Shown: one piece after another, positions 1,880 through 59,455 of the stretch | How the letters are laid out: the number at the start of each line of letters is the position of its first letter | Position numbering within the stretch: the first letter of the stretch is position 1 | Origin: Amoebophrya sp. A120 | Taxonomy: Eukaryota; Protista; Dinoflagellata | Direction of reading: 5' to 3' | DNA: 64,000 nucleotides | Assembly: GCA_905178155.1 (NCBI GenBank) | Contig: CAJINV010000004.1 | Location: 156,969 to 220,968, forward strand | Position numbers and translations under genes: made by a program | The notes under the pieces: generated by a model | Database searches by the model: none | Seen by the model: the letters and a program-made list of their open reading frames with translations, nothing else | Told to the model about the DNA's origin: nothing

Positions 1880-4800
1880 CCCAGAGGTCGTCGTCGTGCA
1901 GCTGGTACTTCTTACACTACTAGCACAGTTTTTTTACTGGACACCCGTTGGCCGACGCATAGTTCGTCATCGCTCGCTGCGAGTGGTCATCACCACGCTC
2001 ACCAGCACCATCACCACAATTTCCAGAACTACAACGCTCACGGTGGAGCTGGTGGAGGACATCACCACAATAATAACTACTACACGTCCTCCGGAGGTGG
2101 AGCAGGTGGACCACTACAGCATCTCCACGGTGGAGCAGGTGGCGGTCCTTCACACCACCACGCAACCACCTCGTCGCACTTCTATCACCAGCAACATTAC
2201 CAACAAACCCCTGCGGGCGCGAGTTTGATGAATGGCGCGACGACCACTACAGCTATGATAGGCGCCCCGGCCTCGACCAGCGGGGGCGGCACGAGCGCCG
2301 GTGTGGATACGACGCATGGAGGTGGTGGATCTACTGGAGCATATAATCGTGGTTACCACCACCAACACCACTCGTACTCATATCCTACTTATGAACTGCA
2401 AAAATATCGTACTCGTATAAATGCATTACAAATTTCCTCAGCATGAGAAGCAAAATTTGTAGCGCTAATTTGCCTTAAGAAATGCATTGTTGCAATTACT
2501 ACGAGTGCGATACTTTTGCACAGGATGCTACTTCGGGGACAGCATCATCCACTTCAGGGCACATGTACAACCACGCGCACCAGCACAGCAACTACCATGC
2601 TGGAGCTGCCGGGAATATCAACAGTAACGTCAGGGCCTCGGCTGCCGGGGCAGCAGCTTCAGCGCACTACCACACAGCGGGGAGTGGACACGGAGGACAT
2701 CACCCGCATGTTCAAGAAAATCAGATGCATGACTACCAAGGCAGCAGCTACAACCATTACGCTTATGCATTGCAAATATGTCTGGTTCTGGAAGGTTGTG
2801 ATGCTGTCTTCGGATAATTGTAAAAAAAAAATGTGTACTTAGTTGCATGACCAGGAGTCCAGTTTGTGCTACGCGGGCGGGAGGGCATTTCTTATGCGGA
2901 ATAGGCATCAGGAAGCCCTCTAAAAATCTGTGATGCTGGGTCATGCATTACAGGCGTCATTGGTCGTCGACTCTATGCAAGATATGCATGACATCAAGCC
3001 TGGTCGTAATTATCTTCCAGACTCAGACATGTTTGCACTTGATAATGCCGGGACCACTACAACAGCGACATCACGAGGGGGCGCGTCTGGCCGCGCCGGC
3101 AGCCCCAATTTCGGTGCAGCTTCCGCCGGTGTATCTTCAGGCGGTGTACTAGCAGCAATGAACAACAACCTGATGCACCAGCAGCACAACAGCAGCTTTT
3201 ACAATCATGCTCAGGATCAACAACATCACCAACATGATCCTACAACTTCCCTTTCATCCCAACAGGATCACCAGCTTTCGCAGCACGGCGGAATGCAAAA
3301 CTTGCAGATGAGCCACGCCTTTGGAGGTAATATTAACCCGCCCGGAGGTGGAGGTACTACAGCCAGTAGTGCCGCTACAACAAACTACGATCAGCAGCTC
3401 CACCAGCAGCCCATGGGCGGGGGCGCGCCCACAACTACAACCGGGAACGCCATGTCGACCAACGCAATTGGTGCTGTAGTTGGGAACAACCCGCTGTCGG
3501 GAGCTTCTGCAATTGACGGAGCAGCAGGAGGAAATTACAACAACCAGCACAGCAGCTTGCAGCACCACATGAATGATTTTCAGCACGATCATTACGGAAC
3601 GATGTTGGGAGCCGATCAGACTCAGACAGCAAACACGACCACGGGTAGTACTAGCACCAACGTGGTGCCCCCTGCTGGGACCACGATGAACAGCTTTGTC
3701 GCCCAGCACCAGCAGCCAGACCAGTTTTACAACAATCAGGCAGCTCCGAGTGCAGGTCAAATGGACTACTATGCTGCTCCTGATGGGATGAGTGCAAATG
3801 CCACTGGTGGCTCTACTTTTAGTACTTCTGCAGCTTTCAACACGTCGTCGTTCCAGAGTGCAGGAGCTCCTGGGTCAGCGGGTTCTGCAGCCGCTGCCGC
3901 AATGGCGGGGGGCGCCGCATCTTCCATGATGGGCAATCACCAAAGCGGGGCTCAGGAGAATGTCTACAATGTTGGTGCGGGGGCGGCGCACCAGCCGCAG
4001 CAGATCAGCCAGTACCCACCGCCACCGCCACCCCCGGCGCTGAGTGGCCTGCTAGCAGCAGGAGCGGGTGGAGGAGCTGCAGCTGCCCAAATTGGCATGT
4101 CAACAATTATGTCGAGTAATTCTAACTTCTTTTACCCCACGACGACCAGTAATAGTACAAAGACACCTAATGCGAATGCCGGAGGCGGAGCTGCTGCAAC
4201 GACAGGAAACACCCCCAACCCGGCCGTTGTACAGAGCCGACGAGGGCCGCCCGAAGCCACGACTTCTACCCCTCCTCCCCGGCACCAGCTGCACCAGCAA
4301 GTAGACATGGGTTACAACGCAAATTTTTCGATTTCATCTCTGGCGACGCCAACAAAGCAGAAAAACCAAGACCAGCAACACGCGCATGGCGATGGTCATC
4401 ATGCTGGTGATCAACATACCAGCACGTCGGACCAGTACAACAAGTGGAGCGCCGGTGGTACCAACTTTGATGATCCCGCGCTGACATCCACTGCGGGCTC
4501 GGCTTCCTCGGTCTTGCACAGCAAGTCAAACGGGCGGCGCGTGGGAGCCGCGGAGGGGTCACAGCACATCATGACGCCCAGCACGGCGGGAGGGCCAGGT
4601 GGACGGCGGGGCGACGCAGAGGAAGAGATGATTCTCTCCGGGAAGGACCTTGGGCAACGAGACCGCGACGTGGCTGGTGGTGCACCCCAGGGACGAGGAG
4701 CAGGCCCGGTGGATGCTATTCCTTGGAATAAAACCGTCCCCACCTCGTAGTCAAGATCGATGATCAGAGTTTTGCTACACCAATGGGCGGCTCGCCGTGT

Positions 4801-7800
4801 TGTAAAGATCGTGTTTGCTACGCCTATGTCAAACTCGCATGACCACGAATTTATCGTGTTATCCTAAAGATGATGACAGCGCAACATCAACAAATACGAT
4901 CCAAACTACCAATAGAAAATACTCTTCATCATGGTACTGCGCATGATATGAAGCGTCCTCAAAAAGCATGCAAAGTTGCAACACGAAGCTGGGGACGAGT
5001 GGAGCCGGGGGGACGGTTTTATTACACAGGATAGACGCTTCGCCCTATTCTCCTTCGGACCTAGTCGGTGGATCTCTGGCACAGTCTGGCAGCGGTGGTC
5101 ACTCTTCCTTGCACTCCACGCCATCTGATCTGGAAACCCCACATATAATTGCTGCTTCCTCCGGAGGCGCTGGAATGAGATTCGCTGGAGGCGACGGAGT
5201 ACTTCATTTACTTAGTCGAGAGTCAGTTCTTTTGCTATATTTTTTATCAACATCAACATGCGCTGCAAAAGAAAAAGGATCGTACTCGTAGGGAGGCATG
5301 AAAAATTTGCGCAAAATAAAGAAAAACAAAAACGGGGCTTGTCAACATGCAGATTCCAGGACGGAAGCAGATCTGTCATGCACGCTGGACATGTAGTATA
5401 AATATTACGAGTGCGATGTCTGCTTTGCAGTGATGTGCAAGAACACAAGGAGACGTTAGAAGTCCATGCTCGTGGTCTCGAAAGCTTGTCCACTTTCACA
5501 CGAGGACGATCAAATGATCTCCGTGTTGAATTCTTGATGAAAATCTGCTGTTGAGCGAGGTTCTTGTATGCGTGTATGTTGATGTTCAGATAGGGGATAA
5601 AATCTTAAAAATTTGACTTCACTATATAAAGTGCAAGAACTACTTGTGTAAAACAAATTATTTCCCACTACAGTTTCCGGCTCTGTCTTCGGGACCCCAA
5701 CGAGATCGAGAGGGTGCAACAGCTGCCACAGGAGTATCCTGAGTAAAAACGTACCCACACCAGAGTCAGGATGGGGATTTTGCAACACAAACCTAGGAGT
5801 TTTGTGAGTCACGCATGACAAGTTGCACTCTGCAGTGTAGTGCAGGTGAACAAGTGCAGCCGCATCACAGATTCATCTGCTCATCCTGTTCACAGCATCA
5901 CAAATTTCAAAACACGATTGGAAATGGCTCTCATGGGGGTGCGCATTACAAGTCTTCCTGTCTTTGCAAATCTGCATTACAACTCTGGTGTGGGTACGTT
6001 TTTACTCAGGATAAGGAGCCGAAAAAAGTCTGTTCCCCGGCACGAACAGCACAGGAGCCCCCGCGGCGGAGTCGTTACAACCAGCAAGCGCGGGGGATGG
6101 GAGCATCGGTGCCCACCAGCAGCAGCACCAGAATTTGTACCACGCAGCTGCGACGAGCAGCGAGTTCTTTCCGGCCACTGCTATGAAAGTGCGCAATCGT
6201 CGTGTGTCATCTTTATTCCCCCCTCTCATTTGTCATGCAAAGTAGTACCAAAACCAAAAGCGCTAGACCTAGACATAGGCTAACTGTTCCTCAGATGAAC
6301 TGCTCGCGTGCTGACATCATGCTCCTTCGCAAGCGGAATAGAACAGTAGTTCGTGTGCTGAGTGTTTGTCATGCGAAAGGAGTACCATGATCATTGTGAA
6401 GTAGCGGTTGTGCTACTGATTCTACCTCCGAAGCTGCGTTTTAAATGTGGGGTGCTAGTAGGGGTCGTCGGGGTTGCGCACTCTCATATTTTTAACCGGG
6501 CCGCGCGGTTCCGTCGATATCGGCAGCAGCACCGTTGCCGGTGACAGTTCTAGCATGTTCGGAGGACAACACGGCCAATATCCAGGAAAAAACACCCATC
6601 GATCCCCATCCATTGTTTGCATGACAAGCACGGGAATTTATGCATGTTTTGCATTACAAATTGGATGGGGCTGGGTGTTTTTCCCTGGATAGCCAAATTG
6701 CCACCTCCAGCGCAGTCCACCAGATGCAGATGTTTGGTCCGGCTGGCGGCGCTATCAAATGTAAAAATGTCTGGGTCTGGAAGGTTGGAACTTGTAATGC
6801 TGTTTTTGAATTCCGAAAAAGTCTGTATTGCATGACAAGCAACAGGAGTCCAGTTTGCGTTACGCGGAGAGGGTATTTCTCATGCGGAATAGGCATCAGG
6901 AGGGTCTCTAAAAGCCTGTGATGCTACGGCATGCATCACAGACGTCATGGGTCATGGAAAATATGCATGACAAATCTAGAAATCTTCCAGACCCAGACAT
7001 ATTTGCATTTGATAGGCGCCAAGTCGGCGGCTGCGCGAGCGATCGACAACTGGCTGCGGGGCGAGAGCTTAATCGAGCACCCCGAGATACACCTGCCCTG
7101 GGAGTGGTTCCTGCCCATCACCTATCACATGCAAATATGTAGTCTGGGTCTTCTGGTGGAAAAGTGGTCGTACAAGAACGCTTGCCTTGCGCATTCGTCT
7201 GCACAACGACCCAGGCCCGGGAGGTCTGTGATGTACTACCATGTACTTAGCAGTTGCCCTGGTGGCATCAACACAGATTCATCTTTGAGGGCCGCTTCTA
7301 CAATTATTCAAAGGCAGCATCTTTGCATAGAACAAATTGCAGCACTTTTCCTCTTCCACCAGACCCATTCATCATATTCGCATTTGATATCATCTCCCAG
7401 CGCATGCCCGAGTACGGAGTGTTTCAGCTGCTGGAGGGATGGCGACAGGCCTCCGAGTGGGACACGTTGCTGCAACACACCCTGGCCGAAACGCTGTCGT
7501 GGCCTACCTGCTTAGACGAACTGACGCGGCGGGCCCCGAACTTGCAGGACGGACGCGAGGGCTTTCTGTACTGTGACCCCCTTGCCTTTTATGCAAAGAA
7601 AAAAATGCTTATGCTTTACAGTTTCAGTTACACACATGGATATGGCCATCTAGTAGTATGCAGGTCGTCGAAGAAGACCGCGGACGACAGGTCCTCACCT
7701 CTCATCATGCCGAGGAAAGAAATGCGCAGAAGCCTACTTAGCACGTGTAAGTACATGGTGTCATACGTGATGCTTTCCATCCTTATGGTCTTTACAGAAA

Positions 7801-10132
7801 AAAAAAGAATTTCTCCGCCATGCGGAGAAAATCAAATATTTGTGTTGCTGAAGTTACAATGCCTGCGGAACTGTAAAAAAATTTCCTCGGGATACGTTTT
7901 TTGTGAGTCGCGTGGACGTGGCCATGTACGAATTCAAGCCCGAGCTGAAGGAGCGCACCAGCGTGATGATGTGGGGTCTGTTATCCTGTTGAAAAATGTC
8001 GTCCCCACCGGAGACTTGTCTTTGTTATGCAAATCTGAATGTTGATCTAAACCTAAAGTAAGATGTTTGCTCTGGCGCGCAGCTTCATGGAATAAACGAA
8101 AGAACGCATAATATTTTCTACTGACTTCTTGTGTATTTGAAATTTGCAGCCGAATATATATGAAGGAGGCGATGATGAATTTGCAATGCCAATGCAGCAG
8201 CCCTTGCTATGACCGTGCGAGAGTCGTGGACAAGAAACCTGTCACGCGCAAGATGAACACACACAGCTTGTCGAACATCTGTGTAGCCAAATGACTATGA
8301 CTTTGGGGTCGTCGTTTTTACACCGGATATCTGTTGGCCTGTACCAAGAGCCTCATGGCTTTTCACAACGCTAACGTGTTCATCTCCTACCGGAAGTTCC
8401 GAATAGCGCTGAAGTTGGTGGTATCCAATGCAATTATGTCTGGGTCTCGAAGGATGCAACTTCAACTTGTGATGCCAAGGTATGCATCACCGACCTCATG
8501 GGTTATGCAAAATCTGCATGAGAAACTCCTGCATTCTTCCAGACGACCCAGACATATTTGCAATCCATAGGTGGACGCCATGTGGCTGGAGGACCCCGCT
8601 GTCGCATCCGACCGAGACAGCTTCGTCGAGCTCATCAAGCAGTATGGATTGCAAAAATGTCTGGGTCTGGAAGATTGCAACTTGTCATGCTGTATTTGGA
8701 TTGCAAAAAAAAATCTGTATTGCGTGACCAGCAACAGGAGTCCAGTTTGTGCTACGCGGAGAGGGCATTTCTCATGCGGAATAGGCATTAGGCAGCCCTC
8801 TAAAAATGTGTGCTGCTAGATCATGCCTTACATGCGTCATGGATCATGCAAAATATGCATCACAAATCCCGGAATCTTCCAGACCCAGACATTTTTTACA
8901 TTTGATAAGCAGCGCACGGCGAACATTTTGTACAGCGCAGCTCTGGACCCCCGATTGCGGCCGGCGGCCGAAGCTTTCAAGTACGTCTTTGACGAAAAAG
9001 TGAGCACGCTGCTGCGCGGCGCCAAGTATCAAAAGTAAAAATGTCTGGGTCTGGGAACTTGTGATGCTGGGTGGCGACTCATGCTGAGGCTGCAAATGCT
9101 GACTCAGCATGAGAAGTTTCTCAGCTCCCAGGTGTTGCCTACTCTGCATGACAAACTGCGCTTTTGCATCACAGAAAAGCGGAGCTCTTGGGTAACGTGC
9201 ATGACAGATTTAAGAGTCATGCCAGACAAGCATGACAAACATGAATTTTTCCAGACCCAGACACTTTTACAGTTGATACCAAGGTCAACATGACCACAGG
9301 AGATGAAGGACATCAAGGCGATCACGTCGTATTAGCAGGATCTTCTATCCTATTTAAAAATGTCCCCATATCAGAGTTGTCATGCAGATTTGCCTGTACA
9401 GAAAAATCTGTAATGCGCATGGCGCAAGAGAGGGGTTCGGATCTGTACTCGTGTTTTGGGATTTGTAATGCTGTAAACTGGATATCAAGCAGGCGTCTTC
9501 GGATGCTGCTGTCTTTGCTAGTAAAGAGCTCTGGACTAGTACAGATGGATACAAACTTGTCATGCATAACTCCCAAAATTTGGAGATTTGTGTTGCAGAT
9601 TTACCAACAACTTGACGCATGGGCTCTTGGGGGCGTTTTTATGCAGGATATTTTCAACTAGTGCTCCTTCACATGGTGGACCACCGACGGCAACTGGCGG
9701 AGCCACCTTGGTCGCGCCACCGTCCTCGGGAGCAGGAGGGACTGCTGATGCTCCAGGAGGTGAACACGTAGATGGTGGACACGGACCAGCACTTGACGCT
9801 TATGCATTGCAAATAAAAATGTAGTCTGGGAGGTCTGGAAATAAAGATCTTTTGTGTCATGCAAATAAAATAAAAATGCTGTTTCTTATTCTTATGCGCG
9901 GCACAGCGCATGCATGGGAAGGCATAATTGCGAAAATTTGCCATACTTGGCTCCTGCACTCGACGAAAATTAAAGCATGTTGAATCATTACAATTCGGCA
10001 TCGCAAGTTTCCAGAGCGACACCAGATAAATTTTTTGAATTTGTTGATATTAAAGCTGCTACAAGTAGTACGGCAGACCACCTGGTGGCAGGAGCTCCGA
10101 CGACGACGAGCGCGAGCGACGTGGCTGCATGA
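1880..10132 (+). CDS. Large multi-exon hypothetical protein: long His/Gln/Gly/Thr low-complexity N-terminal region and a globular C-terminal region; start codon uncertain
   Basis: Frame restored across TIR introns 2390-2527, 2764-3044, 4717-5033, 5735-6013, 6182-6488, 6579-6691, 6753-7014, 7123-7389, 7982-8329, 8422-8569, 8643-8907, 9027-9278, 9346-9650, 9801-10049. Example joins: GQHGQ|IATSSAVHQMQMFGPAGGA|KSAAARAIDNWLRGESLIEHPEIHLPWEWFLPI|SQRMPEYGVFQLLEGW and ISYRKFRIALKLV|DAMWLEDPAVASDRDSFVELIKQ|RTANILYSAALDPRL. Stop TGA 10130-10132. Junctions near 5200-5670 and 7560-7900 are unresolved. Confidence 0.8.
2390..2527. mobile_element. TIR introner family B (short)
   Basis: TATGAACTGCAAAAATATCGTACTCGTA...TACGAGTGCGATACTTTTGCACAGGATG; TSD CTACT. 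Confidence 0.9.
5735..6013. mobile_element. TIR introner family F (TATCCTG-AAAAACGT)
   Basis: TATCCTGAGTAAAAACGTACCCACACCAGAGT is a perfect inverted repeat of the right end; TSD AGGAG. Confidence 0.9.
6579..6691. mobile_element. Smallest TIR introner found (113 bp)
   Basis: TATCCAGGAAAAAACACCCA...TGGGTGTTTTTCCCTGGATA; TSD GCCAA. Confidence 0.85.
6753..7014. mobile_element. TIR introner family A (most abundant)
   Basis: TATCAAATGTAAAAATGTCTGGGTCTGGAAG...CTTCCAGACCCAGACATATTTGCATTTGATA; TSD GGCGC. Confidence 0.95.
8643..8907. mobile_element. TIR introner family A
   Basis: TATGGATTGCAAAAATGTCTGGGTCTGGAAG...TTTACATTTGATA; TSD AGCAG. Confidence 0.95.
9027..9278. mobile_element. TIR introner family A (reverse-complement relative of 37361 and 43338)
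   Basis: TSD CCAAG; the body closely matches the reverse complement of 43338-43589. Confidence 0.95.
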
Positions 10133-11825
10133 TCTCCAACTTCGACACGTTGCCCTGCAGGACGCCAAGGTCAAAGACAGGAACAAGTGTCCTCGACGTG
10201 ACAACTCACGACATCTTCGTTTTCTACTTGCTGGTGAGCGTGAGAGCGGGGCCGGGATGAAAAATGCATATTAGAAAGGGCGGAAGGAGATCCGTTCTTT
10301 CCGTTACCGTTTTACAAATGAATATCACTACTTCTACCCGCCGCTTCGGAAACCGGTACCTGTTTGGAACAAGAATGAATGCCGCAACCAAGATTTTAAA
10401 GGCGACTTGTTTACCTCTATTGAGTAGAGTGGCACAAGAACTACAGGATGAATTTTATTTCCCCATGAAGATCGTCGCCCTTTGAATAAATTTTAATTTC
10501 TGTCGAAGCGAGGAAAATAAATAGCGAACACAAACGATCGATATCCAAAACTATTGAAAAAAACCCGTTCTTTTCACGGTGCAGCGTGTGTACTACTTTT
10601 GGACCAGATCATTCTTGTAGTTGCACTTGCACACTAGTTCTTTTTATGTATGTTGTTTTTGTTTTGGAGATAAAGGTTTTGCTTCTTTTAGAATTATGCA
10701 GCTGGGACAGCTGCTCAGCGAACTGATAAAGAATACTTTTCGGCACGGCACGCAGGATATAGTACTCTCACTGAGGGGAAAGACACGTTCATGTACAACC
10801 TAAGAACTTCTATGTGCAGCCATCAACGCAAAAAAAAGGCGATCGAACTACTAAAGAGGCGGACTATCGTCTTTAAGTCGACTATTTAAATACTGAGTAC
10901 TCAAAAACTCGAACTTTCTCCCCTCGAACAGCACCAGTAAATAATAAATATACCAGTTCTGTCCTCCTCTACTAGCATCAGATTGTGTTTGATGTTTCTC
11001 CAGACGAGAAGGCTGGAGATGTGATCTTCACGCTCGAAAAATATGTGTCGAACTTCGTAATAATTTTCTAAAAGAAATCTAAAGAAAAACGATTGACGAC
11101 GAAATAAAAAACCGGGATGAATCTCGTAGCTGTATGTTCTTCGACGCGGGTGCAATATCCTTAAACATAAACATCTGACGAGCAACTCGATATCACCCTT
11201 TACCACCAAAGGATTTACAATCGCTTCGGTATCATGATGTTCAAAAAGACTATCCGCTTATTTGAAGATTCTTTCTCTTGCTGCGAAGATTACAACATGG
11301 AAGATCATCATCAAACGGTGGAAATGAGGAGCAAAGAAGAGCAGGGTGCTAGAATGAGGAGATGTAATTTCTATCGCTGATCATAAAACGGCGAGTAGCG
11401 GCTTTCTTCACACTCTTCGGGCAGTTGGTGCCTCATCAGATCCCGTCGGGCGGTAGAACTATTACACGAGGCACAAGTAGTGCCCTGCAGTGGACCGCTC
11501 TCCGTGTTGACCAGTTAGAAGGTTGCTTCTATTTGTACTTATCCCTGGTGTTCACAAGCCGGAAGCAAGAAAATTTTTAGAAGTAGTTGAACTTCTCATG
11601 ATCAAAACAAAAAACAACCATCACATGAAGCAATCAGATTTTTAAGCAGGAGGATCCACAGTCACAATATGAAGCAGCATGCAATAAATGATCCTGGCAA
11701 GCATCATGCAATGCATGCAATAAATTTTAAAATTTAATTGTTGAGCGTGTTATATGAATCATGGGCGAAAAGAAGGACTACTCGTGCGAATGCTAGTTAG
11801 ATTTCAGCTTGTTGCACATTGTCAT

Positions 11826-13180: not shown

Positions 13181-14888
13181 GCCGCCACACGAAGAGACCC
13201 GCGAAGCGACGAGCCCAGATTCATCCGGAGAAGAGCACAACGTTATCAAGAGCAAACATGTTTTATTTAGGTCTGGAAGTTGGAAGATTGCAAGGCTGTC
13301 GTGCTGGTCTCAGTCTCACATGACTCTCTTTATTTTAAATATGTAACGCATGAGCAGGAAGATAGCTTCCTAGCTGTGATACAAAACTGCAGTTTGTACT
13401 GCAGAAAGTGAAAGAACAAACGGGAACGCAAAAACTTTACACGCGTAGCTGCGGTTCTTCGCAGTGCGCTCCCTATTTTACTAACGGGAAAAGTTCAAGA
13501 ATAAGAATTTCAACAAAAAAATCATCACTGGCCCTTGAGCAATCCCAGGGGCGGGCGCCCGGTTGCTGGTTCGAGGGCAGGATTGCTGGAAGGCCGAGCG
13601 GCGGCAGGGCACATCAGCAGGCCCTGTCGGTCCAGAAAGCGGAGCACCCCGTCGAGTCCGCAGGCGAGCCTGTTTCTGGTGGCATTTCAGTGAAAACACA
13701 AGAAAAGCCTCTCCGGCGCCCGACGTCTTGCCTCATTCTTTCCTAATGAAGGCACTCCCCTCCACGCACTGAATTAGTTAACTTCGCCCGGTCTACTTGA
13801 GCCAGTCTTTTTAACATGAAGAGCCTTCATCATTCGCACAAAACAGACTTACTTAGGCGCCGGCTTTGGCGCTCTACTTTCTTGTAGGTCTACAGGGGCT
13901 GCTGAATGAAATATAGGACCCGAGGCTGCTGAAATACAGCTCATGAAGGAGTGGCCCCACAAAGATACAGAAAAGGCCTCCGACACAGGTAGCATGTAGC
14001 TTCTGCGCTTTACAACAATGAGACACCAGCCTGGCCGTTATCTAAAATCTCAAGAATACCAACAAGGGGGACCTCCCAAAGGGGGTCCCTAAATCCGTAT
14101 TCTTGAGATTTTAGATTAGTGCCAAATCGAGGGAATCAGGTGCATCTAAAATCTCAAGAATACCAACAAGGGGGTCCGCCCAAGACACCTCCCCGAAGAG
14201 GGGTTTTCGGGGAGGTGTCTTGGTTTGGGGCTCGTTTCGCACCCCCATCCGATCAGCCAAATCGACCGACTCAGGTGCATCTAAAATCTCAAGAATACCA
14301 GAAAAGGGGTCGCCAAGTGGCCAACGCCCGGCCCGCCTTTTGGGGCCCCTTGATTTTGGCCAAATCGACCGACTCAGGTGCATCTAAAATCTCAAGAATA
14401 CCAAAAAGTGGGCAACTTTGGGGCCCGCGCAAAAGTTCGTCGGAATAGGCACAACTTCCAGGCCCCTGCCAAACGTCCGAGATGAACTCCCTTAGTGTGT
14501 GGCGATTAGTGCTCTACTTTGTGGAGGTTAGTACTTTACTGCGTCCGATGTCCCGTTCGGGCGCAGGAAGGCTTCCTCCGCTTCAGTGCCATAGCAGGAC
14601 CTTTCTGAAAGCAGCCCGACCGAATGCGTTGCGCGGCCTTTGCTCCCCGCCCCCTGTTAGTGCGTGTTTTCCGAAAAAGGGGATGAGTGGCGTTTGCAAA
14701 TAAAACAGCACAGCGTAGCTGCGGTTCTTCGCAGTGCGCTCCCTATTTACAAACTTGCATATAGAAGTTTCCAATCTGAGGCAGATTTGCAATGCATACA
14801 CGTACTAGCCCTCGCCCGAGTTGATGCAAGCCACTTGATGCAAGCCGTCCAGCAGATGTTCAGCAACGAAATGGAAATACAGAGTTAG
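13181..14888 (+). CDS. 3' exons of a hypothetical protein; upstream exons unresolved
   Basis: After a GT..AG intron candidate (13030-13180): PPHEETREATSPDSSGEEHNV|LALARVDASHLMQAVQQMFSNEMEIQS*, joined across TIR element 13244-14798. Confidence 0.5.
13244..14798. mobile_element. Family A-like introner enlarged by a ~1.2-kb insert
   Basis: TATCAAGAGCAAAC...GATTTGCAATGCATA; flanks AACGT/CACGT; internal 36-bp direct repeat at 13443-13478 and 14713-14748. Confidence 0.75.
14040..14410. repeat. Interspaced repeat ATCTAAAATCTCAAGAATACC (4 direct copies, 1 inverted)
   Basis: Copies at about 14040, 14144, 14279 and 14382; inverted copy at 14097-14116. Confidence 0.85.
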
Positions 14889-17800
14889 AGGACAAGAAAT
14901 AAAATCCCAATATTTAATATAATTTGTACGATTAACAAGTAGATGAAACATGAAGTATAGGTGCTATAATATTTAACATGTAAGATCAAGATGTAGAAGA
15001 TTTAAAGAAAGGCGGTCGCAAGGGATTAACAAGATATAGCACACCCGATATTGGTAGGGCAGCGGCCGATATAATATCAAGTAGCAGCGCCTGACTGTAT
15101 AGAAACTACAATGATCAAGGTGAAGTACTCAATCTCAATGAAGACCATCTCGAAGGCCACGAGTGTATGTACCTCGTTAAATTTTTGATTGGTGTCAAAC
15201 TGTAGTACAGCTCGCCACCGGACGTCTCTGCCATGTACGTGTACCGAAAGAAAAATTCGTTGTACTTAGTCGTGCGCTCGTGGCCGCTTTTATTGTGTGC
15301 CGCTAGTTAGTACCTGTGCTTAGTATTGCTTGTCGCCATCTAGGAGTACGTAGGGGCGCCAGGGAGCAAGCAGTATTTATAATCCAAGTGGTGCAATAAA
15401 TTCAGTGTTGGAAGTGGATTTGCCTTTCGTGCGTTCTTCATAGCAGATCATTGTTTCATTCTCTCATGTAAGAACACTTTTTGTCGGTTACTGTTTCCTG
15501 CGCTGTTGGTTGTAATTAGAAAAAGAGCTATGTTGCTAGATGCACGCTTCTATGAAAATTTTCGTTGTCGCTGTGAAGTGCATTTGATGTGAGAATACCA
15601 TATTCTCTCTATTAGCACTTCTGCCAGAGCGTGATTATTATCGAAGCAGTAGTGGCTCGGAAATCGTCAGAAAAGAAGTAATGTGCGCTTTATTTTGCAT
15701 GAGGTTCTATTACGCCCTACAACACACTTGGGCGATGGTTCGCAAGGGCGGCTTCCATCACGTTGTGCGGACTAATTCTAGACCGTACAAATAAACTGAA
15801 ATGAGGGTCCTGGGAGGTCGGATAGAGTCGAATGGAACAACAGGACAAGTGCAGTTGTTCGCCAGTAGCGGCGCAACTAAGCAACATCGGACATTGGGTC
15901 TGGGCGTGATAAAACGAGTCCTTCCTGACAGTTTTTGGTCAGGCGTCGTTAAGATTTACTTGCAGCTAAGTAGCTATTAGCGGCGAGTGGCGCCAAATCG
16001 TCACCTTATGGGCCTGTAGAGGAGTTGTCGTAAAGCGACCGCGCGGCCGGCTACGGCCTACGTAGCTGCGGGACACTTTACTTGGTGGGAGGCCGCCTTA
16101 CTTTCCGGCTTGTCCGTCACACTGTGGACATTTGCTCGGGCGGGTAGACGGTGGAAGGAGCTCTGGCCGCTGATTTTTTTTTGAAATTGATGGGGTTTAG
16201 TTTTGCGTCGGTCTGCAGAAGGCCTTCGGATGCTCGCTTTTTTTGTGGGAAGAGTGTTTCGTAGAGCGGCCGCCCCTCGGTATCGTCGGCTGGCCCTGAG
16301 CTGGCTTGTCCGGGGGGGCTGGCCACACGGTTCCAGTTTTTTGTCGGGGCGGTAGAGCGTGCCCCACGTGGGAATGCTCTGTCTATGTGTGAGACAAGGA
16401 TGTGACCCAATGGGGCAGGGCCAGCCAGTGAAGATAATTCGTCCCGCACGATGACAAGGGGGGACACAAGTTGGGCACGCAGTCTAATTCTGACAGCGCT
16501 GGGCCGGACCACCTAGCAAGAGCGAATCTCGGACGCAGAAAAAATCTACAGGTGAATCTGGCCCGACCAAAAGACACGCTTTTATTTGCTATGCAACGGC
16601 GGTGAAGCGTTTCACCTGTGGCCGTATTTTTAAATATTGCGCACATTACCTCGCACGCCCCGGCGCCCCGAACGACGTCCCTTTCCATAATCGTTGGGGA
16701 AGGTTCTTCACTCACAGATGCCGGTTATGACACTGCAGACTCCGACCCGTCCCCCCCCAGATAATAAAAACAGGTTACTCGGAACTGCAACGGAAGCTGC
16801 ATCACGATAAAAATGGAATTAGCATGCAAAGTCGTAAAGTAGAAGCAAGCTATCGCTATGCTCAGCATTTTTGCAGTCTGTCTGTGTGAAGAAAGGAACG
16901 TTGTCACGCACAAATTCCCGAGAGCAGACCCGAGTTGCATACACCTGGGCATAAGTTTGCGAGACACGATAGCGATAGTATTGTATGAAAAAAGTTTTCC
17001 CTGTATAGGATTTTGCAAGTTTTGCATCAGGGTTTTGTTTTGCTTTGTTTTCCATGCGAGTTTCCTAAGAGCACACACACAGCTATTGTTTTGCATGCAT
17101 AGCAACGCAAGTAGTTCTGGGATACACGACCTTCTTTCGATCGGGAGGGTGGTTTCTGCATTCCCATATCTTGCGCCATGACGCCTGCTCCTCGACAGAT
17201 CGCCACAGACGGGCCGGCCTCAGTGCACTGGTGCCAGACAATCATATCCTGTTATCAAATGTAAAATTATGTCTGGGTGATGTGTGGTTATGGACGATGA
17301 GGGTCCTCGTTGCCAGCTACAACGAGGACACCCCTGAAGATGAGCCTTGTGATGCGTGTTGCGGCTGAGCCATGCTGCTGTTGCCTTTTCATTCTTTCAA
17401 AAACGCGGCTTTTTTATTTCATGCGTCTTACGCACCGCACAGCCTTCGAAAATTTGCCACTCTCGGAAAAATCGTGTGCGGGTCAACACCTCAACCTTGT
17501 TTCAACAAGCAGAGAGTTGTACCTACAAATTCACCATAGAGTAGTCATGGTCATCGTCCAGACCACCCACAAGTAGACTACACCTGGATTTGCAATGCAT
17601 ACCCCGCGGAAAACGAAACTTCTCCCCGGCGCCAATCTATCCAGAGTGAAGATGTGATTTTTGTATAACAGTGGAAAAGGACGAGGACGAGGACCAGTTC
17701 CAGTCAGTTTCCTCATTTGTTATGCACAAGTACAAGTCCACCTCCACTCATTGTCTTTTCGCCAGTACTTGCGTGACAGGCTATAGCACTGCAGTCCGTG

Positions 17801-18187
17801 GTGCGTGGACTTTGTCCCGCAAACATGTTGTAACGGTGCCCCTGTTTTGATTTTGTTTTCTCTGTTGCTGCGAGGAAGAGAGCGGAAGTGGTGGTCCGCT
17901 GTAAAAAGTTTGCGCCCCACTGACACTGACAGACACAGAAGCTTTAGCAGCTTAACGAACTCTGCATGGCAAGGAACAAGTGTGAACTACAACGCATTAT
18001 GGGAGTTTTTTTTATCTTGCTTATAACATCTAGGTAGCAACGCAGGAGGCATGATGGCATCTTCACATTTTGCGACAGATCTTTCTAAAGTTGCAACACG
18101 CCGCGCATCACAAAAATCCACGCTGGGTTGGGTTTCATGTTTGTAATACGGGATAAGCGAAGGAGCAGTGCTACTGCTACCCCCAGT

Positions 18188-18360
18188 TATCAAATGCGAA
18201 TATGTCTGGGTCTGGAAGATTCTAAACTTGTGATGCTGCCTCTGGATTCTCAAAAATTTGTATTGCATGACCAGCAAGACGAGGACATGCTAGGGCCCAC
18301 ATCACAGAGATCATGACAAGCCTGGCAATCTTCAAGACCCACACACTTTTGCAATCCATA
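18188..18360. mobile_element. TIR introner family A (internally deleted)
   Basis: TATCAAATGCGAATATGTCTGGGTCTGGAAG...TTTTGCAATCCATA; TSD CCAGT. Confidence 0.9.
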
Positions 18361-19224: not shown

Positions 19225-19660
19225 TTGCGGTAGAGATTCAGGGAGAGGGTCCGGGAGAGGGTCCCGGAGAGGGTCCGGGAGAGGGTCGGGGAGAGGTTCG
19301 GAGAGGGTCCCGAAGAGGGTCCGGGAGAGGGTCGGAGAGGTCCCGAGAGGGTCCGCCGAGAGGTAAAATAGAGGTTCCCGGAGAGGATCGGGGTAGAGGG
19401 TCACCTAGAGGGTCGCCCTATACTACGCACCCTCTCTGACCCTCTCGACCCTCTCCCCCTACCCTCTATTTGACCTCTGTCCACCCTCTGCCTACCCTCT
19501 TCGGGCGTATAGCGCCGGTATACGGGCCGATATACTGCCCACCCTCTCCCTGCCCTTTCCTTTACCTCTCGCTTTACCTCTCCCCGACCCTCTATTTTTC
19601 CCCGACCCTCTATTTTACCTCTACGACACCTCTCTCCACCCTCTACCGGAACCTCTCCGG
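19225..19660. repeat. ~12-bp minisatellite (CCGGGAGAGGGT) followed by inverted CCCTCT-rich copies
   Basis: Read directly; similar GAGAGG/CCTCTC arrays at 28535-28900. Confidence 0.8.
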
Positions 19661-26500: not shown

Positions 26501-29500
26501 TCTCCCACAACAAAAGAAGGACACATCAGACATCAGACCCAGCGTCAAGATGACAAATTTGCTTACACCAGTCAAAAAGTTTTTAACCTGATGTATTTCT
26601 TGGCCACGCGACCGACGGGCGTGGCGATCCCTGAGGAGCACGACACACATTCCAATTTCAAAAATATAAAACGAGATGGCATCCTCAGAAAACGGCGCTC
26701 ATGGGATTTGTGCATGAGGAACGTTTATTCTGGGGCGCAGATTTGCGTGACATCAACTCTGGGGCGGGGACGTTTTCGCACAGAATGCGCGCCGTTCTTC
26801 ACCCTCGCAAAAAAGGACGACTTTATGCCATCCTACAGCGGACTTTTTCGGCTTTATGTCCCAAAAACGTCGGGGGTGGCGGCTAACAAAGAGTGCACCA
26901 TTATCATGTGTAAAAACCTCTCCACCCCAGAGTCAAGATGGGATTTTTGCTACACAAGTCAGCAAGTTTTGGCTGTTGCGTATGACAAGCTTTGGTCTCT
27001 AGTATAATAGCGCTGCTTGGCTAGTAGAGCCGCATCACAAATCCAGCTCCCTATCCTGATTAGCGCATGACAAAGTACCAGACAGCATGAGAAAGTGCTG
27101 CTCATGGGGTTGCGCATGAGAAACCTTTTAGGCATGCAGATTTGCGTGACAACTTTGGGGGGGACGTTTTTCCTCAGGATAACCATGTACGAGGACGTCG
27201 GGGTAGAACGTAAAATATCCTGTGCAAAAGTATCGCACTCGTACTGCAGTCATGCATTGCAGATGCTTTTCTTAAAGTAAATCCGCATTCACAAACTTAT
27301 TTTCTCATGCTGAAGAAATTTGTATTTGTAATGCATTTCCATTTGTACGAGGAGTGCGATACTTTTGCGGTTCATATAAAACCGCCAGCGACGCCTTTGC
27401 GGTACTTACCGAATGCATATATGTTATCTGGGTCTGGAAGAGTGTAGACTTGTCATGCAGGAGGTTTTCCATGATCCGTGATGTCTGTGATCGTGATGTA
27501 CGCCCTAGCATCACAGAGCTTTTGATGAGGGCTTCTAGATGCCAATCCCGCATGACAAATGCCCTTTTGGCCTAGAAAAAATTGGGCTCCTGTTGCTGCT
27601 CATGCAATGCAGAGTTTTTTACAATCCAAACGCAGGATGATCACAAGTTCCAGCTTTCCAGACCCAGGAGACATATTTGCGTTTGATAGCACTCCCACTT
27701 CCGCAACAGGTGTTCGCATTAAAGGATGCGACGAATTTATCGCCAGAAAAAAACTGTCTCACTGTAAACTTGTAATGCAGATGAAAATACATCTCACTCG
27801 CACAAGTGTTTGTCGTGCTAGACACAATTATCAAGACGGTGAGTTTTTACCTGCGTAGTCTCCGTTTTCCCTTAGGAACCTTGTACGGCAGATTTTCTCT
27901 GTCATGTAGAACGAACTTGCGATGCAAAACCTGCAAAATCCTATACAGTGAAACGCTTTTTTCTCACGATAGAATACAGCGGCTGTCGGGAATTTCATTA
28001 CAACAGCAGAAGGCTGCTTCGAGTGGTGCTTTCGCAGCAGCAAGTGCGTTGCGTTTACGCTTTTACCCAACATATGAGAGTGCACAATTCCCCCTCTTCC
28101 TCATTTGTCATGCAAAACCCCATATGCAAGTGCTTCCCTGTGGCACTGTTTGCATGACAGATTCCGGAAGGAGCCCAAACAGTACTACACTAGGCGCACA
28201 AATTTGTCATGCGCAGGCTCCACCCACGACGTGTGCTGGTGTTTGTAATATGATTGCTGTTCATCTTCATGGAATACAAACGAGGGGAGTTGGGGGAGTT
28301 GTGCACTGTCATGCAACACCTTTGCCGAATATAGCGACAGCGACCCGAAAATTACGGAAGTCTCGTCAGAGCCGTATGCCTGTAGTGTAAGCAGTGAAAT
28401 TTCTGCGTGCGTCCCAGCCACCCTCTATGGCCCTCTCCGCTGCCAGCTTTACTCGTCCTTGAAGCGGTCGTATGGAACTGTCAGAATTGAAAGTAACAAA
28501 GCTAGAATTACTATCTATTATATTCATGCGAAAAAAGAGGTCTACAGAGGGTAGACGAGAGGTGGCCGAGAGGTCAAAAAGAGGTAAAAAGAGGTCGACA
28601 GAGGTGGGGAGGTGGCGCGGGAGGTCGTCAGGGAGGGTGGCCGAGAGGTGGCGCGGGTATAGCCAGCCGAACCGTTCACCCTAAGGCCGCGCCTATAGGG
28701 ACCAGAGGGGGCCGAGACGGTGCAGGGAGGGCAAGCGAGAGGGGGACAGAGGTGCCGAGAGGTTGCGCGAATAAGGGCGAACCTCTCGCGCACCCTCCTG
28801 GCCACCTCTCGGCCACCTCTGTAGACCTCTACCGGCGAGTATAGCCGGATTATTAGCAACACCTCTCGGGAGAGGTGAAAAAGAGGGCCCGCGAGAGGGT
28901 AAAAAAGACCGGAATCCGCCCGGTACAGGGCCGATCTTCTGGGGGGGTTTTGCATCGCGTGGGGCCGCACCCTCTCGCGCCGGCCTCTCGCGCCGCCCTC
29001 CGTCCCGCGCTACCCTCTTGCGCCAACAGTTTCCGCCGAGAATCCATTTGGGCGAGGGCGGAAGGGCGGCCCACAATTGGCAGCGTGGTTCCCGCTCTGC
29101 TTCGGCACCTACGCCCAGGCGGCTACTGTTCGCGCCCAAGCCTCGCTGCAGTTGCTCCCTGCGCATAGCGCCGAAAGGCGCGGGAAGCGCGCAGGAGGCC
29201 CTGCGGGCTGACATGGCGCAAGGCGGCGCCAGAAATTTGGTCGGTCTGTCACAGTGTGGTCCTGAAATTTGGCAGGGCTCTGGTGCTGCGGTCCGATCCG
29301 CAAATAGTTATGCCCCAGCGCAACAGCCTTGCGCCCCGGCGGCAGCCGGGGCATGGCTGGCAATTTCTCATGCATAAAATCTATACCAGTCGGACCCACA
29401 GTTTCCAATCGGCGCATGACAAATTTTCCTGGCCTCTGCAGCAAGTCTTTTTATGCTGTTTAGGGCAAGAGGGCTCCTCCCTGTCATGCTAGTCAGCAGC

Positions 29501-32500
29501 CCAATTCCTGACCGTTGCCAGCGCCATAATCTGCCTCCCGTGCGTCCTTTGCAATAGAGTCAGTCTCTGTGTTGCATTTTATGCATGACAAATCATTTCA
29601 ACTTTGTCGATTTCGAACCTGACACATCCATAGGCGGCCGCAGGAAAAATACGAGTGGGGCGAGAACGGCCCGAAGTATCAAATGCAAATATGTCTGGCT
29701 CTGGAACATTCTAAACTTGTGATGCTGTCTCTGGATTCTAAAAAGATTTGTATTGCATGACCAGCAAGTGGACTCCGGTTTGTGCTACGCGGAGAGGGCA
29801 TTTCTCATGCGGTACAGGTATCGCAAAGCCCTCTAAAAATCTTCTGTGATGCTACGGCACGCATCACAGACATCGCGGCTCATGGAAAATATGCATGACA
29901 AATCTAGAAATCTTGCAGACCCAGACATTCTTGCATTTGATACGACGGGTTCCGTGGGGATGATCTTGGGCGACTCCAATCCTGACAAGACGCTCGCGTC
30001 AAAATGCTATCCTGTGCAAAAGTATCGTACTCGTAGTAATCCCATTCATGCATTACAAATTTTTTTCTCAAGGTAAATCCGCATTACAAATTTCAAGGAT
30101 AGCCATGAGGGAACGCATTGAGTCTACTCATGGCTATTTGCCTCCTTTTTGCATGGGTGGCTCCTGGGGTCTCCTCTTCGCGTCGGTTTGCTTTGTGCCA
30201 AGTTCGGTCGTGGGGCTTCAGAGGAACAAAACTATAACGATCGCACTCGTGGGGACAAATTGCATATGGGGCCGTAGATCAAGTATTTCCACTTAGTGCG
30301 TCTTTATTAATTCCCTCAGGAGCACTGCTGTGTCTATCTCGATTCCCATTGTGCCACTCGTAGGCATTGCTTTCCGCTCAGTTTCATTATCTGCCTTGTC
30401 AGAGCGCAAATAATGGGAGTAGTAGTGCGTCGGGTTGTCCCTGCCAGTTCACGACCCGCCACTGATGCCGCGCTGCGAAGGGAGGGGCAGCGTGCTACTG
30501 TCGGCCCTGCTTGCTACCGCGGAGGGAGCGGCCCAAGTTCCCGCACCCACCGGAAACGCCGAGGGTTCGCGCGAGACCGACAGCCACCCCCTATCCCCGG
30601 GCGGAGCCCCCCCACTCTACCCCCGGAACCCGCCCCCCTATACCGCCACTTCTTTGGAGCCCAGAGATTGTATCATGTTCCCCCCCTTCACCAGGACCGA
30701 GCCCCGATAGCGCCGCGAAGGGGCCGAGCACGCTTTGACGAAGCCGCAAAGGGCCTGGAAGAAATACACCGCAGAGCAAATCCATGGAGCGCCTATGCAT
30801 GTAGAGTTTGCATGGCGGCGCGCTTCCTTGTAGTGGCGACCTTCTATCTTGGCATGGCGACGCATGATGACAGTCAGAAGCAGAAGGCATGCGCGAGCAA
30901 AGGACAAGGGAGATACCACGTTCCAAGATTTGCCGAGCAAATTGCATAACGATGCGGAAAGACAGAGGCTTTTTTTGAAAGAGAGGCCATTCACACCATG
31001 CGAGGCCACCCGCGCGAGTATTCTAAAATAGGGAATACTCCCCAACCGCCCTACGGCCATGGTTGTGAAAAAAAACGGCGCCGCGGGTCCCCGGGTTCGC
31101 ACAGCCACCCAGTTTTTTTACTAACTATTATCCAACAGCAGTCCGTCGAGCAGTCCCAGTACCCCCCGAGTAGCCCCCCCAGCTACCACCTCGAGCCTAT
31201 GGCCCCACCTGCTGCCTCGGCACCAACTGGATCGGCTCACCATCCGCTTCCGGGGGGTGCAAATTGGTATCTAACCGACACTGTGCCAAGAGGAGGGCCC
31301 CCCCGGGACCGCCTGGCGATAGCCTGCCATGGGTTTCGCTGTCTCCGGGCGGCGTAGCGAGTTATCCTGCGAAAGCTTAAAACCTGCAGAAAACGGGCCG
31401 CGGATGCGTTCTTGCTGGACATTGCCAACATTTGCCCACGCAGAGCCGTTGGCTTGCTGGACACACACAGCCAACATTTGTCCAAAACAGCCGAGGGCCA
31501 AGACGACGCCGCGAGGACGACCGCAGGGGGTCTGTCTCCAAGAAGAAGAAGATGGCGAGGGAATGCGTCATGCATTTATACGAGTGCGATACTTTTGCAG
31601 TTCATAAATGCCGCAGGCAGCTGATGAGCGCGGTCATCCGCGCGCAGCCGTAGGGATGTGTCAGGTTTGAATTCGTCAAAGTTGAAATAATCTGCAAACG
31701 CATAAAATGCATGACCCGAGGTGCGTGTGTTGCAGAGCAGGCAAGTGAGGCCGATTGTAAGCCTGTTCGGGGTTACAGCTCGAGCTGCTAAAGTAGCATG
31801 AGAAAATCGAGGCTCTTCTTTGCCTAAACAGCATGACAAACTGGATTTAGGGACCGCCGAAATTTGTCATGCGCCACTTGGCTCAAGGCTTTGCATTGTT
31901 TCCTGAGATCCAACAATCAAATCTAGAACAGGGGGAGCTATGCCGTAGAGTACACACGATAACTCGCAATCATTTTACCACCACTGACACCACGCCGGTA
32001 TCTCCCCCGACCCCCTGAGGAGGAGTTTCGAACGAAGTAGATAAACGCCCGAGCGTGGCGGGTCCGCTGTGCCCCCCTTTGCAGTAGCCTGCTAGATCTC
32101 AGGCCCCCCTTTACAGTAGCCGAGATCTCAGACCCAGCGTTTCGCGTTGCCGAGTGCCCATCCTAAAAGTGACCTCCTTCCCGCCCGGACATGGCGCCTA
32201 AATCCTGCAGCAGTCGTCCACGCGCCATCCTGCGCAGCAGCAAGGTCCTCGCTTAGCCTGACGGGCATGGGCAGCAGCTTCTCCATGTTCGCGGAGTCGC
32301 CGTTTACCGTCCTGCGGGTGTCCACTCCAGAGGAGCGGCACATAGTAGTCGTGCCGTACAACCGCAATCCGGGGAGGCGAGAGTCGGGGCGCGCAATAGG
32401 CTGCGGGTCGTAGTCTCCCACACACAACACCACCAAAGCGAGACAGGCCGCACCACTGCCAAACACGGAGGCACCGACCGCCAGCGCGCGACCAGGGCAG

Positions 32501-58952: not shown

Positions 58953-59455
58953 GATGGCCGAGGAGCTCCTGGCCATCGCTTTTGCGTGCCTCGGCCGGAG
59001 AGTGATGTTTTGCCCGAACGAAAGGCGATGGCCAAAAGTGATGGCCAAGGAGCTCGCGGCCACTACTCTTGCCCGAACCGATCGGAAAGTGATGGCCGAG
59101 GAGCTTTTGCCAACCACTTTTGCCCGACCGGAAATAACTGATGGCCGCCGAAAGTGGTGGCCAAGGAGCTCCTGGCCATCACTTTGCTTGGTTGGTTGCC
59201 CGTCGGCCCGTCCGAGCGAAAAGCGATGGCCGGGGAGCCATTGGCCATCAATCACTTTTGCCCGAGCAGAGTGATGGCCAAGGGGCTCTTGGCCATCACT
59301 TTCGCCCGACGGACCGGAAACACTTTTGCCCGGGCGAAAAGCGGACCGGAAACATTTTTGCTCGACCGGGAAGCCGGCCGGAAAGTGATAGTCAAGCAGG
59401 ATCTTTTGGCCATCACTTTTGCCTAACCCGACCGGAGAGTGATGGCCCAGGAGTT
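58953..59455. repeat. Array of ~8 palindromic units GTGATGGCC-n-GGCCATCAC
   Basis: Read directly; flanked by a ~68-bp direct repeat at 58886-58953 and 59699-59766. Confidence 0.85.

What the first reader, a model, noticed from the sequence alone, without database searches (positions are those of the whole stretch)
6753..7014. A ~10-bp motif (TTTGT[C/G/A]ATGC / GCAT[G/C/T]ACAAA) shared by all otherwise unrelated families, arranged as inverted pairs
Seen: families A-G differ in TIR and body but all carry several copies. In family A they occur as pairs with 7-8 nt spacers (CTGTGATGC-tacggcat-GCATCACAG; TTGTCATGC-acatttt-GCATGAC at about 33646), giving several small arms inside the closing TIR stem. 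Even the 113-bp element at 6579 keeps two copies. Inference: a common binding site for one transposase or excision factor, or a conserved multibranch RNA fold marking the intron.
Basis: partly seen in the sequence, partly recalled or inferred. Interest (0 to 1): 0.8.

Follow-up and report, generated by a model that had tools for sequence, protein, structure and literature searches.

The report
Helix-phased docking sites in jumping introns
Small mobile DNA pieces that are missing from what are likely this plankton parasite's transcripts nearly all carry several copies of one conserved 11-letter word, mostly 31-33 letters apart on one strand; it likely marks where the enzyme that copies them grips the DNA, rather than an RNA fold that marks the intron.

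Summary
The motif is real: 86 matches against 0.64 expected. The elements are TAT…ATA, 5-bp-duplication mini-transposons that fit the published Amoebophrya A120 introners (PMC7789003). In 383 elements (51 window, 332 related loci) the refined motif GCA(T/A)(G/C/T)ACAAAT occurs in all 12 families, and 373 have two or more sites. 'Inverted pairs' is the minor arrangement (116 of 383); same-strand pairs 31-33 bp apart dominate (247 of 383), and end-pointing sites start 40-42 or 49-52 bp from an end. Some families are related. The RNA-fold reading fails: no covariation, the quoted arm has pairing probability 0.00, and likely-RNA contigs lack all 15 elements of the host gene, including one without any site and two with opposite-strand arrays. 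Sites are conserved on internal branches and decay in old copies. Best reading (0.6): subterminal transposase-binding sites on double-stranded DNA, as in hAT elements. No binding or transposase was shown here. I found no paper describing the motif; this scan noted it before on other DNA of this genome.

The parts
6753..7014 (.).
   Evidence: joint 6747|7015 skips 267 = 262+5 in X3, X4, X6
6748..6752 (+). 5-bp target duplication GGCGC, left copy
7015..7019 (+). 5-bp target duplication GGCGC, right copy
6753..6786 (+). left terminal inverted repeat
   Evidence: I21, 91% complementary
6981..7014 (-). right terminal inverted repeat
   Evidence: I21
6790..6800 (-). motif site, end-proximal on the left, ACAAG pointing to the end (first G 48 bp in)
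   Evidence: score 15.5
6821..6831 (-). motif site, same strand, 31 bp further in
   Evidence: score 12.5
6830..6840 (+). motif site
   Evidence: score 15.7
6875..6885 (-). motif site (GCATGAGAAAT variant)
   Evidence: score 15.2
   Evidence: score 13.8
   Evidence: score 15.1
6965..6975 (+). motif site, best match (the only strict 10-mer), first G 50 bp from the right end
   Evidence: score 18.3
6579..6691 (.). 113-bp element (family 7) with two same-strand sites at 6619 and 6651, 32 bp apart
   Evidence: joint 6573|6692
4717..5033 (.). control: element with no motif site (best score 5.3) that is still absent from the likely-RNA contig
5735..6013 (.). control: family 3 element with six sites, all GCAT-first on the sense strand; removed
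9346..9650 (.). control: family 3 element in the opposite orientation with five sites, all on the antisense strand; removed
1946..11511 (+). host gene: 15 elements and one GT-AG intron (5199-5673) removed give a 1266-codon open stretch; no motif site in 5180 exonic bases

Best explanation
The motif is a conserved, repeated word inside these non-coding mini-transposons and is likely an array of subterminal binding sites for the transposase that copies them, read on double-stranded DNA. Shown: the elements have TAT...ATA ends and 5-bp duplications; they carry about four sites each; the first end-pointing site lies 40-42 or 49-52 bp from an end and the next usually 31-33 bp further on the same strand; the central base is free; sites are conserved while elements multiply and decay in old copies. 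Inferred: these distances (about one and three helical turns) would put the sites on one face of the helix, where several DNA-binding domains of an oligomeric transposase, supplied in trans, would load next to each end, as BED fingers do on Hermes ends; short elements would be deletion derivatives that kept the ends and these arrays. Removal from the RNA is likely a separate process set by the ends (cut one base before TAT and four after ATA) that does not need the motif.
For: Universality: 12 of 12 families, 373 of 383 elements with 2 or more sites, 1657 sites against 6 in shuffled elements. Geometry: same-strand 31-33 bp, family-weighted 16.8 against 2.2 +/- 1.5 in 2000 random layouts (p 0.0005, 32 family units); end-pointing sites absent at 25-39 bp, peaks at 40-42 and 49-52. 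Constraint: core columns 0.88-0.98 conserved against 0.63-0.85 for other interior columns in 12 of 12 families. Timing: core changes are 0.28 of the interior rate on internal branches and 0.52 on terminal branches, the free position 1.07 and 0.97; site density falls from 2.04 per 100 bp (49 youngest) to 0.91 (15 oldest), rho 0.43 over 376 elements. Related families 4/6 and 2/11 keep site positions while the sequence between them diverged. Long elements keep sites near their ends. Not needed for RNA removal. Precedent: Hermes BED domains bind phased subterminal repeats (PMC10368747, passages); Lemi1 binds subterminal motifs of the Emigrant MITE (PMC1636448, abstract); 5-bp duplications occur in hAT5 (PMC12730594, passage).
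Against: No transposase in 135 of 305 long ORFs scanned against Pfam, and no binding was shown. Farhat et al. found no transposase in A120 and argued against general transposase-mediated mobilisation (PMC7789003 section 16). A host DNA-binding protein would give the same geometry. 119 sites lie outside masked elements against 6 expected; some are in decayed elements, some in an unrelated repeat. The spacing windows were chosen after seeing the maps, families are not independent, and family 0 is 184 of 383 because its end was the search pattern. Families 1, 10 and 11 have their end-nearest sites pointing away from the end (35-46 bp), family 8 lacks the 31-33 bp spacing, and an 18-bp spacing was not enriched. 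Parsimony counts on a small sample of thousands of copies blur terminal and internal branches.
Confidence: 0.6

Rival explanations
1. A host double-stranded-DNA-binding protein (a bending or chromatin factor, or a transcription factor) reads the motif, and elements that recruit it are copied more often or tolerated better; the transposase reads only the ends.
For: Same phased geometry and the same decay pattern expected; motif shared across different inverted repeats; 119 residual sites against 6 expected outside masked elements, and a same-strand run of sites in a repeat without its own TAT...ATA ends at about 34100-34900 and 48130-48700.
Against: 44-fold enrichment in elements; fixed distance from the cut ends; positions 4-13 of some ends resemble the motif itself (families 1 and 10); 5 of 14 distant residual window sites lie in or next to elements recognised by other calls (19, 27, 37).
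Confidence: 0.22
2. The motif is a relic of common descent from one ancestral transposon and has no present function.
For: All families share the end rule; some share site maps; 4 of 383 elements have no site.
Against: Core columns are conserved well above neighbouring columns in every family, with a free central position, and most strongly on internal branches; 3-7 copies per family consensus sit at phased positions.
Confidence: 0.08
3. The motif is an RNA-level signal: either small hairpin arms of a conserved multibranch fold or a site for a splicing factor that marks the non-canonical intron.
For: Elements fold stably (z -8.87 for this one; consensus interiors z from -11.7 to +0.8 with a crude shuffle); local arms have probability above 0.5 in 13 (forward) and 16 (reverse) of 40 sampled pairs out of 80; 1 of 8 covariation tests gave p 0.005 (39 against 36.6); 14 of 15 removed elements keep at least one site; contigs cannot measure splicing efficiency.
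Against: No covariation at the variable position (46 of 99 against 43.4; 16 of 50 against 16.6); 267 of 383 elements have no close inverted pair and 58 have one orientation only; 5735 (six sense sites) and 9346 (five antisense sites) are both removed, and so is 4717 with none; sites decay in old copies.
Confidence: 0.1

Closest known systems
Introner elements (IEs) of Amoebophrya sp. A120 (Farhat et al. 2021, PMC7789003; Gozashti et al. 2025, PMC12130899)
   Same: TAT start, seven variable bases, A-run; inverted repeats; 3-5 nt direct repeats; non-GT-AG removal; many families; intron starts GT/CT/AT/TT in Table S4 fit the N-TAT cut seen here.
   Different: The parts I read describe no internal motif, spacing or end distance; the 2021 paper argues against transposase mobilisation, and the 20 (+2) of 58 A120 rows that I saw in the 2025 table mostly say 'TIR DNA, Unknown'.
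hAT subterminal repeats (Hermes BED sites, PMC10368747); hAT5 group with 5-bp duplications (as cited in PMC12730594)
   Same: Several short sites near the ends, both orientations, asymmetric between ends, exact phasing relative to the end matters, quasi-palindromic pairs.
   Different: Here the site is about 11 bp (Hermes 4 bp), starts about 40 bp in, repeats at 31-33 bp and is shared by families with different inverted repeats of about 30 bp; no transposase was seen here.
Emigrant MITE / Lemi1 (pogo-like), PMC1636448
   Same: A MITE whose internal repeated motifs are bound cooperatively by a transposase in trans.
   Different: Different superfamily, one family, not an intron former.
IS3EU/GingerRoot transposons (PMC10045372, PMC12730594)
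   Same: TA..TA (TAYGG..CCRTA) termini.
   Different: Usually 6-bp duplications, here 5; the passages read say nothing of subterminal arrays.

Membership tests
Amoebophrya A120-type introner elements | Inverted repeat starting TAT, seven variable bases, three or more A | tested here: met
   112 ends: A at 11-15 in 86, 97, 97, 79, 68; TAT itself was a detection criterion
Amoebophrya A120-type introner elements | Short direct repeat at the boundaries | tested here: met
   5 of 5 in 309 and 4 of 5 in 67 of 376 short elements (at least 4 of 5 was required); 0 false calls in 237,550 shuffled bases
Amoebophrya A120-type introner elements | Removed from transcripts without GT-AG | tested here: met
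   15 of 15 elements of one gene skipped as length + 5 in contigs of runs guessed to be RNA (3 runs, 2 samples, 1 study), which also skip a GT-AG intron
Amoebophrya A120-type introner elements | Host organism is Amoebophrya | not tested
   Inferred from the element features only; no protein phylogeny was run
hAT / hAT5 subterminal repeats | Repeated short sites near the ends at fixed phase | tested here: met
hAT / hAT5 subterminal repeats | 5-bp target duplication (hAT5) | tested here: met
   hAT5 feature from PMC12730594
hAT / hAT5 subterminal repeats | Cognate hAT transposase with a BED-type domain in an element with the same ends | tested here: inconclusive
   None in 135 of 305 ORFs; no gene-bearing long element among those found in window or loci; other notes of the scan claim candidates elsewhere, unchecked by me
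hAT / hAT5 subterminal repeats | Transposase binds the sites and needs them | not testable with these tools
   needs binding and transposition assays
IS3EU/GingerRoot | TA..TA termini | tested here: met
   PMC10045372
IS3EU/GingerRoot | 6-bp target duplication | tested here: not met
   5 bp; RNA skips are element + 5 in 15 of 15
Conserved structured RNA element | Compensatory covariation in the proposed arms | tested here: not met
   7 of 8 tests null, including both at the variable position
Conserved structured RNA element | Arms present in all families and needed for removal | tested here: not met
   no close inverted pair in 6 of 12 families; removal without sites

The most novel reading that the evidence does not exclude
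One protein reads a shared, helix-phased internal code (sites 31-33 bp apart on one strand, with an inverted site half-way in some families, a 16-bp alternating lattice) and so mobilises many introner families whose terminal repeats differ: recognition has moved from the family-specific ends to an internal array, while the ends double as the splice signal. The motif is then a direct bait for the missing engine of the Amoebophrya intron invasion.
Probability: 0.35. Interest if true: 0.75.

Novelty: new variant of a known kind. Interest (0 to 1): 0.5.

Why it matters
How tens of thousands of non-canonical introns spread in this parasite is an open question: the genome paper found no transposase in A120 and argued against transposase-driven spread. 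A motif shared by all families, phased like a protein footprint and constrained while elements multiply, points to one DNA-binding machine, separates mobility (internal sites) from splicing (ends), and gives a concrete probe for pull-down, binding and mutation tests. The elements themselves and the idea of subterminal transposase sites are both known, which caps the surprise.

Tried and rejected
No whole genome is held for the window and the metagenome records could not be searched as genomes, so all counts rest on 64 kb plus 440 kb of loci. Transposase search: 135 of 305 ORFs of 170 aa or more scanned against Pfam gave host enzymes only; the other 170 were not scanned; profile-evading or intron-split transposases would be missed. 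Long TAT...ATA elements of 0.6-2.3 kb proved to be short elements with foreign inserts or repeats; four were checked for reading frames, longest 238 codons. Viral contigs: 0 matches to the family 0 end; 29 matches to a spaced motif pair were isolated pairs or short tandem runs, mostly 33 bp apart, with no element context examined beyond site maps, read as chance or coding repeats. No holder on record as RNA was listed; raw RNA run X11 laid only 66 reads, 63 of them at 90-95% identity, and gave no information. An 18-bp same-strand spacing seen in three consensus maps was not enriched (1.7 against 2.6). The only GT-AG intron seen holds two sites and a remnant of a family 1 end, so it is no clean test of 'general splice signal'. 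A resemblance to the Sox2-Oct4 composite site and to branch-point consensus was recalled from memory, not tested by any search, and dropped. Candidate 17253-18360 was dropped as overlapping a better call; L009:6849-8326 is probably a false call and was left in the 383.

Full report
Observation. TTTGTVATGC occurs 86 times in the window; 100 dinucleotide shuffles give 0.64 on average and at most 3. The quoted examples are present: 6916-6941, 33645-33667, and two sites in the 113-bp element. 52 of the 86 matches lie in the 53 elements first catalogued; many of the other 34 lie in degenerate or interrupted elements.

What the elements are. They start with TAT(C/G), end with (C/G)ATA, have an A-run at positions 11-15 and a 5-bp target duplication. 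This matches the description of Amoebophrya A120 introner elements: TAT, seven variable bases, three or more A, direct repeats of 3-5 nt (PMC7789003; abstract, passages, sections 12 and 16 and supplement passages read; its figures are not held). The organism is inferred from this match alone. In run X1, whose long contigs match the window with no difference and which may be its source, element bins reach summed depths near 1e5 against about 45 for unique DNA, and contigs run through several elements.

More data. No whole genome is held. A metagenome scan with the family 0 end gave 173 loci, 440,190 non-redundant bases. A fixed rule called 383 elements (51 window, 332 loci) and none in 237,550 shuffled bases. 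They form 12 families of 3 or more (357 elements; family 0 has 184 because it was the bait) and 26 elements in smaller groups. GCATGACA is the only 8-mer common to 12 of 12 families; 366 of 383 elements have the 8-mer core, 287 the strict 10-mer. A family-weighted matrix, GCA(T/A)(G/C/T)ACA(A/G)(A/G)(T/C), finds 1657 sites against 6 in shuffled elements; 4 elements have none, 6 have one. After masking all similarity to elements, density is 13.96 per kb inside and 0.32 outside; the 119 outside sites still exceed the 6 expected. 5180 exonic bases of one gene have none.

Arrangement. Same-strand pairs 31-33 bp apart occur in 247 of 383 elements and 11 of 12 families; close inverted pairs in 116 of 383 and in 6 of 12 families (in one of them 1 of 19 members); 58 elements have one orientation only. 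Against 2000 random layouts over 32 family units: same-strand 31-33 bp 16.8 against 2.2 (p 0.0005), tail-to-tail 7-9 bp 5.6 against 1.4 (p 0.0025), head-to-head 23-25 bp 4.5 against 1.5 (p 0.017), tail-to-tail 39-41 bp 5.0 against 1.0 (p 0.003), same-strand 17-19 bp not enriched. These windows were picked after seeing the consensus maps and the units are partly related. Since 8 + 24 = 32, the inverted pairs fit the same lattice, with an inverted site half-way (inference). Sites pointing to the near end are absent at 25-39 bp and peak at 40-42 and 49-52 bp, with smaller counts at 44 and 54. Families 1, 10 and 11 have their end-nearest sites the other way round, and in 1 and 10 bases 4-13 of one end resemble the motif. 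Families 4 and 6 (sites 261/259, 177/177, 145/145, 52/50 from one end) and 2 and 11 (46, 64, 88, 130-131, 139) share site maps, so 'otherwise unrelated' is too strong.

Constraint and timing. Core columns are more conserved than other interior columns in 12 of 12 families. On trees of nine families, core changes run at 0.28 of the interior rate on internal branches and 0.52 on terminal branches; the free central base runs at 1.07 and 0.97; inverted-repeat positions 11-30 behave like the core. Site density falls from 2.04 per 100 bp in the 49 elements with the closest relatives to 0.91 in the 15 with none (rho 0.43, 376 elements under 400 bp). This is what a signal needed for copying, and not afterwards, would give; the sample is a small part of thousands of copies, so terminal branches mix both phases.

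RNA test. Contigs of X3, X4 and X6 (guessed to be RNA; 2 samples, 1 study) skip 15 of 15 elements and one GT-AG intron of the gene at 1946-11511, each element as its length + 5; the finding's element is skipped at 6747|7015. Joining gives a 1266-codon open stretch on the + strand. Element 4717-5033 has no site (best score 5.3), 4 of 15 lack the exact core, 7 of 15 lack the 10-mer; 5735-6013 has six sites all in sense and its relative 9346-9650 five all in antisense; family 0 is removed in both orientations. Contigs do not measure efficiency, so a modulating role is not excluded. Covariation: at the variable position 46 of 99 tail-to-tail pairs match (43.4 expected) and 16 of 50 head-to-head pairs (16.6); 1 of 8 tests reached p 0.005. 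The element folds as one long rod; the quoted arm has probability 0.00, and 13 and 16 of 40 sampled arms (of 80) exceed 0.5 on the two strands. Stable folding follows from the inverted repeats and does not show a conserved multibranch fold.

Mechanism. Most likely (0.6) the sites are subterminal transposase-binding sites on double-stranded DNA. Hermes is the closest working model: several BED domains bind short subterminal repeats whose phase relative to the end is critical (PMC10368747, passages); Lemi1 binds subterminal motifs of a MITE (PMC1636448, abstract); hAT5 makes 5-bp duplications (PMC12730594, passages). IS3EU/GingerRoot has TA..TA ends but usually 6-bp duplications (PMC10045372, passages). 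I found no transposase in 135 of 305 ORFs nor in long elements, so superfamily membership is open. A host DNA-binding protein (0.22) cannot be told apart by sequence. Other notes of this scan report 10-26 kb TAT...ATA elements with a likely hAT-type gene; I could not check them, they gave me the hAT lead, and they are no support.

Novelty. The elements are published. The motif is not in the parts of PMC7789003, PMC12130899 (passages; supplement rows, 22 of 58 A120 rows; files 13-14 not searched) or PMC11282704 (passages) that I read; 'GCAT' has 0 hits in the first paper's supplement text; searches listed no paper on it. Figures and subscription journals, such as Roy et al. 2023, were not seen. 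This scan noted the same motif and spacing on other pieces of this genome; my first reading was recorded before I saw those notes. Verdict: real, partly mis-described, a new variant of a known kind; interest 0.5.

Noticed in passing
window 6180|6493 and 9799|10054; all 15 joints in 2384-10054: Where the two duplication copies differ, the cut is fixed: one base before TAT and four bases after ATA in 2 joints, compatible in 15 of 15. The intron thus starts N-U-A-U-(G/C), which fits the GT/CT/AT/TT starts in the paper's Table S4. Other notes of the scan report the same.
   Followed up: partly
window 30008-31606, 35122-37285, 40243-41409, 44673-46279, 48014-50285; L027:505-1608; L075:3862-4492: Short elements split by foreign inserts of 0.35-2 kb; several break points lie at or beside a motif site, and L075 has a 13-bp duplication that overlaps the motif. 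Too few to test.
   Followed up: partly
window about 34100-34900 and 48130-48700: Two 86%-identical copies of a repeat with same-strand GCATTACAAA sites (spacings 105; 99 and 31) and many small palindromes; the second lies inside element 48014-50285.
   Followed up: partly
window about 28500-29632 and L027:505-1608: An about 1.1-kb family 6 derivative with the same G+C-rich insert at two loci (87% over 538 bp), so the enlarged form likely moved as a unit.
   Followed up: partly
window 5199-5673: The one GT-AG intron seen holds a remnant of a family 1 end and two motif sites.
   Followed up: partly
window 45069-45800, 44862-45011, 14040-14401, 19244-19660, 58971-59421: Tandem or palindromic arrays (92-bp, 11-bp and others) unrelated to the motif.
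   Followed up: no
element ends, positions 4-10: These positions change as fast as free interior sequence (ratios 1.23 and 1.00) and often differ between the two ends, e.g. 8643-8907, which is still removed.
   Followed up: partly
L015:690-4790: ORF with DNA repair metallo-beta-lactamase and DNA ligase N-terminal domains, next to a ligase catalytic ORF.
   Followed up: no
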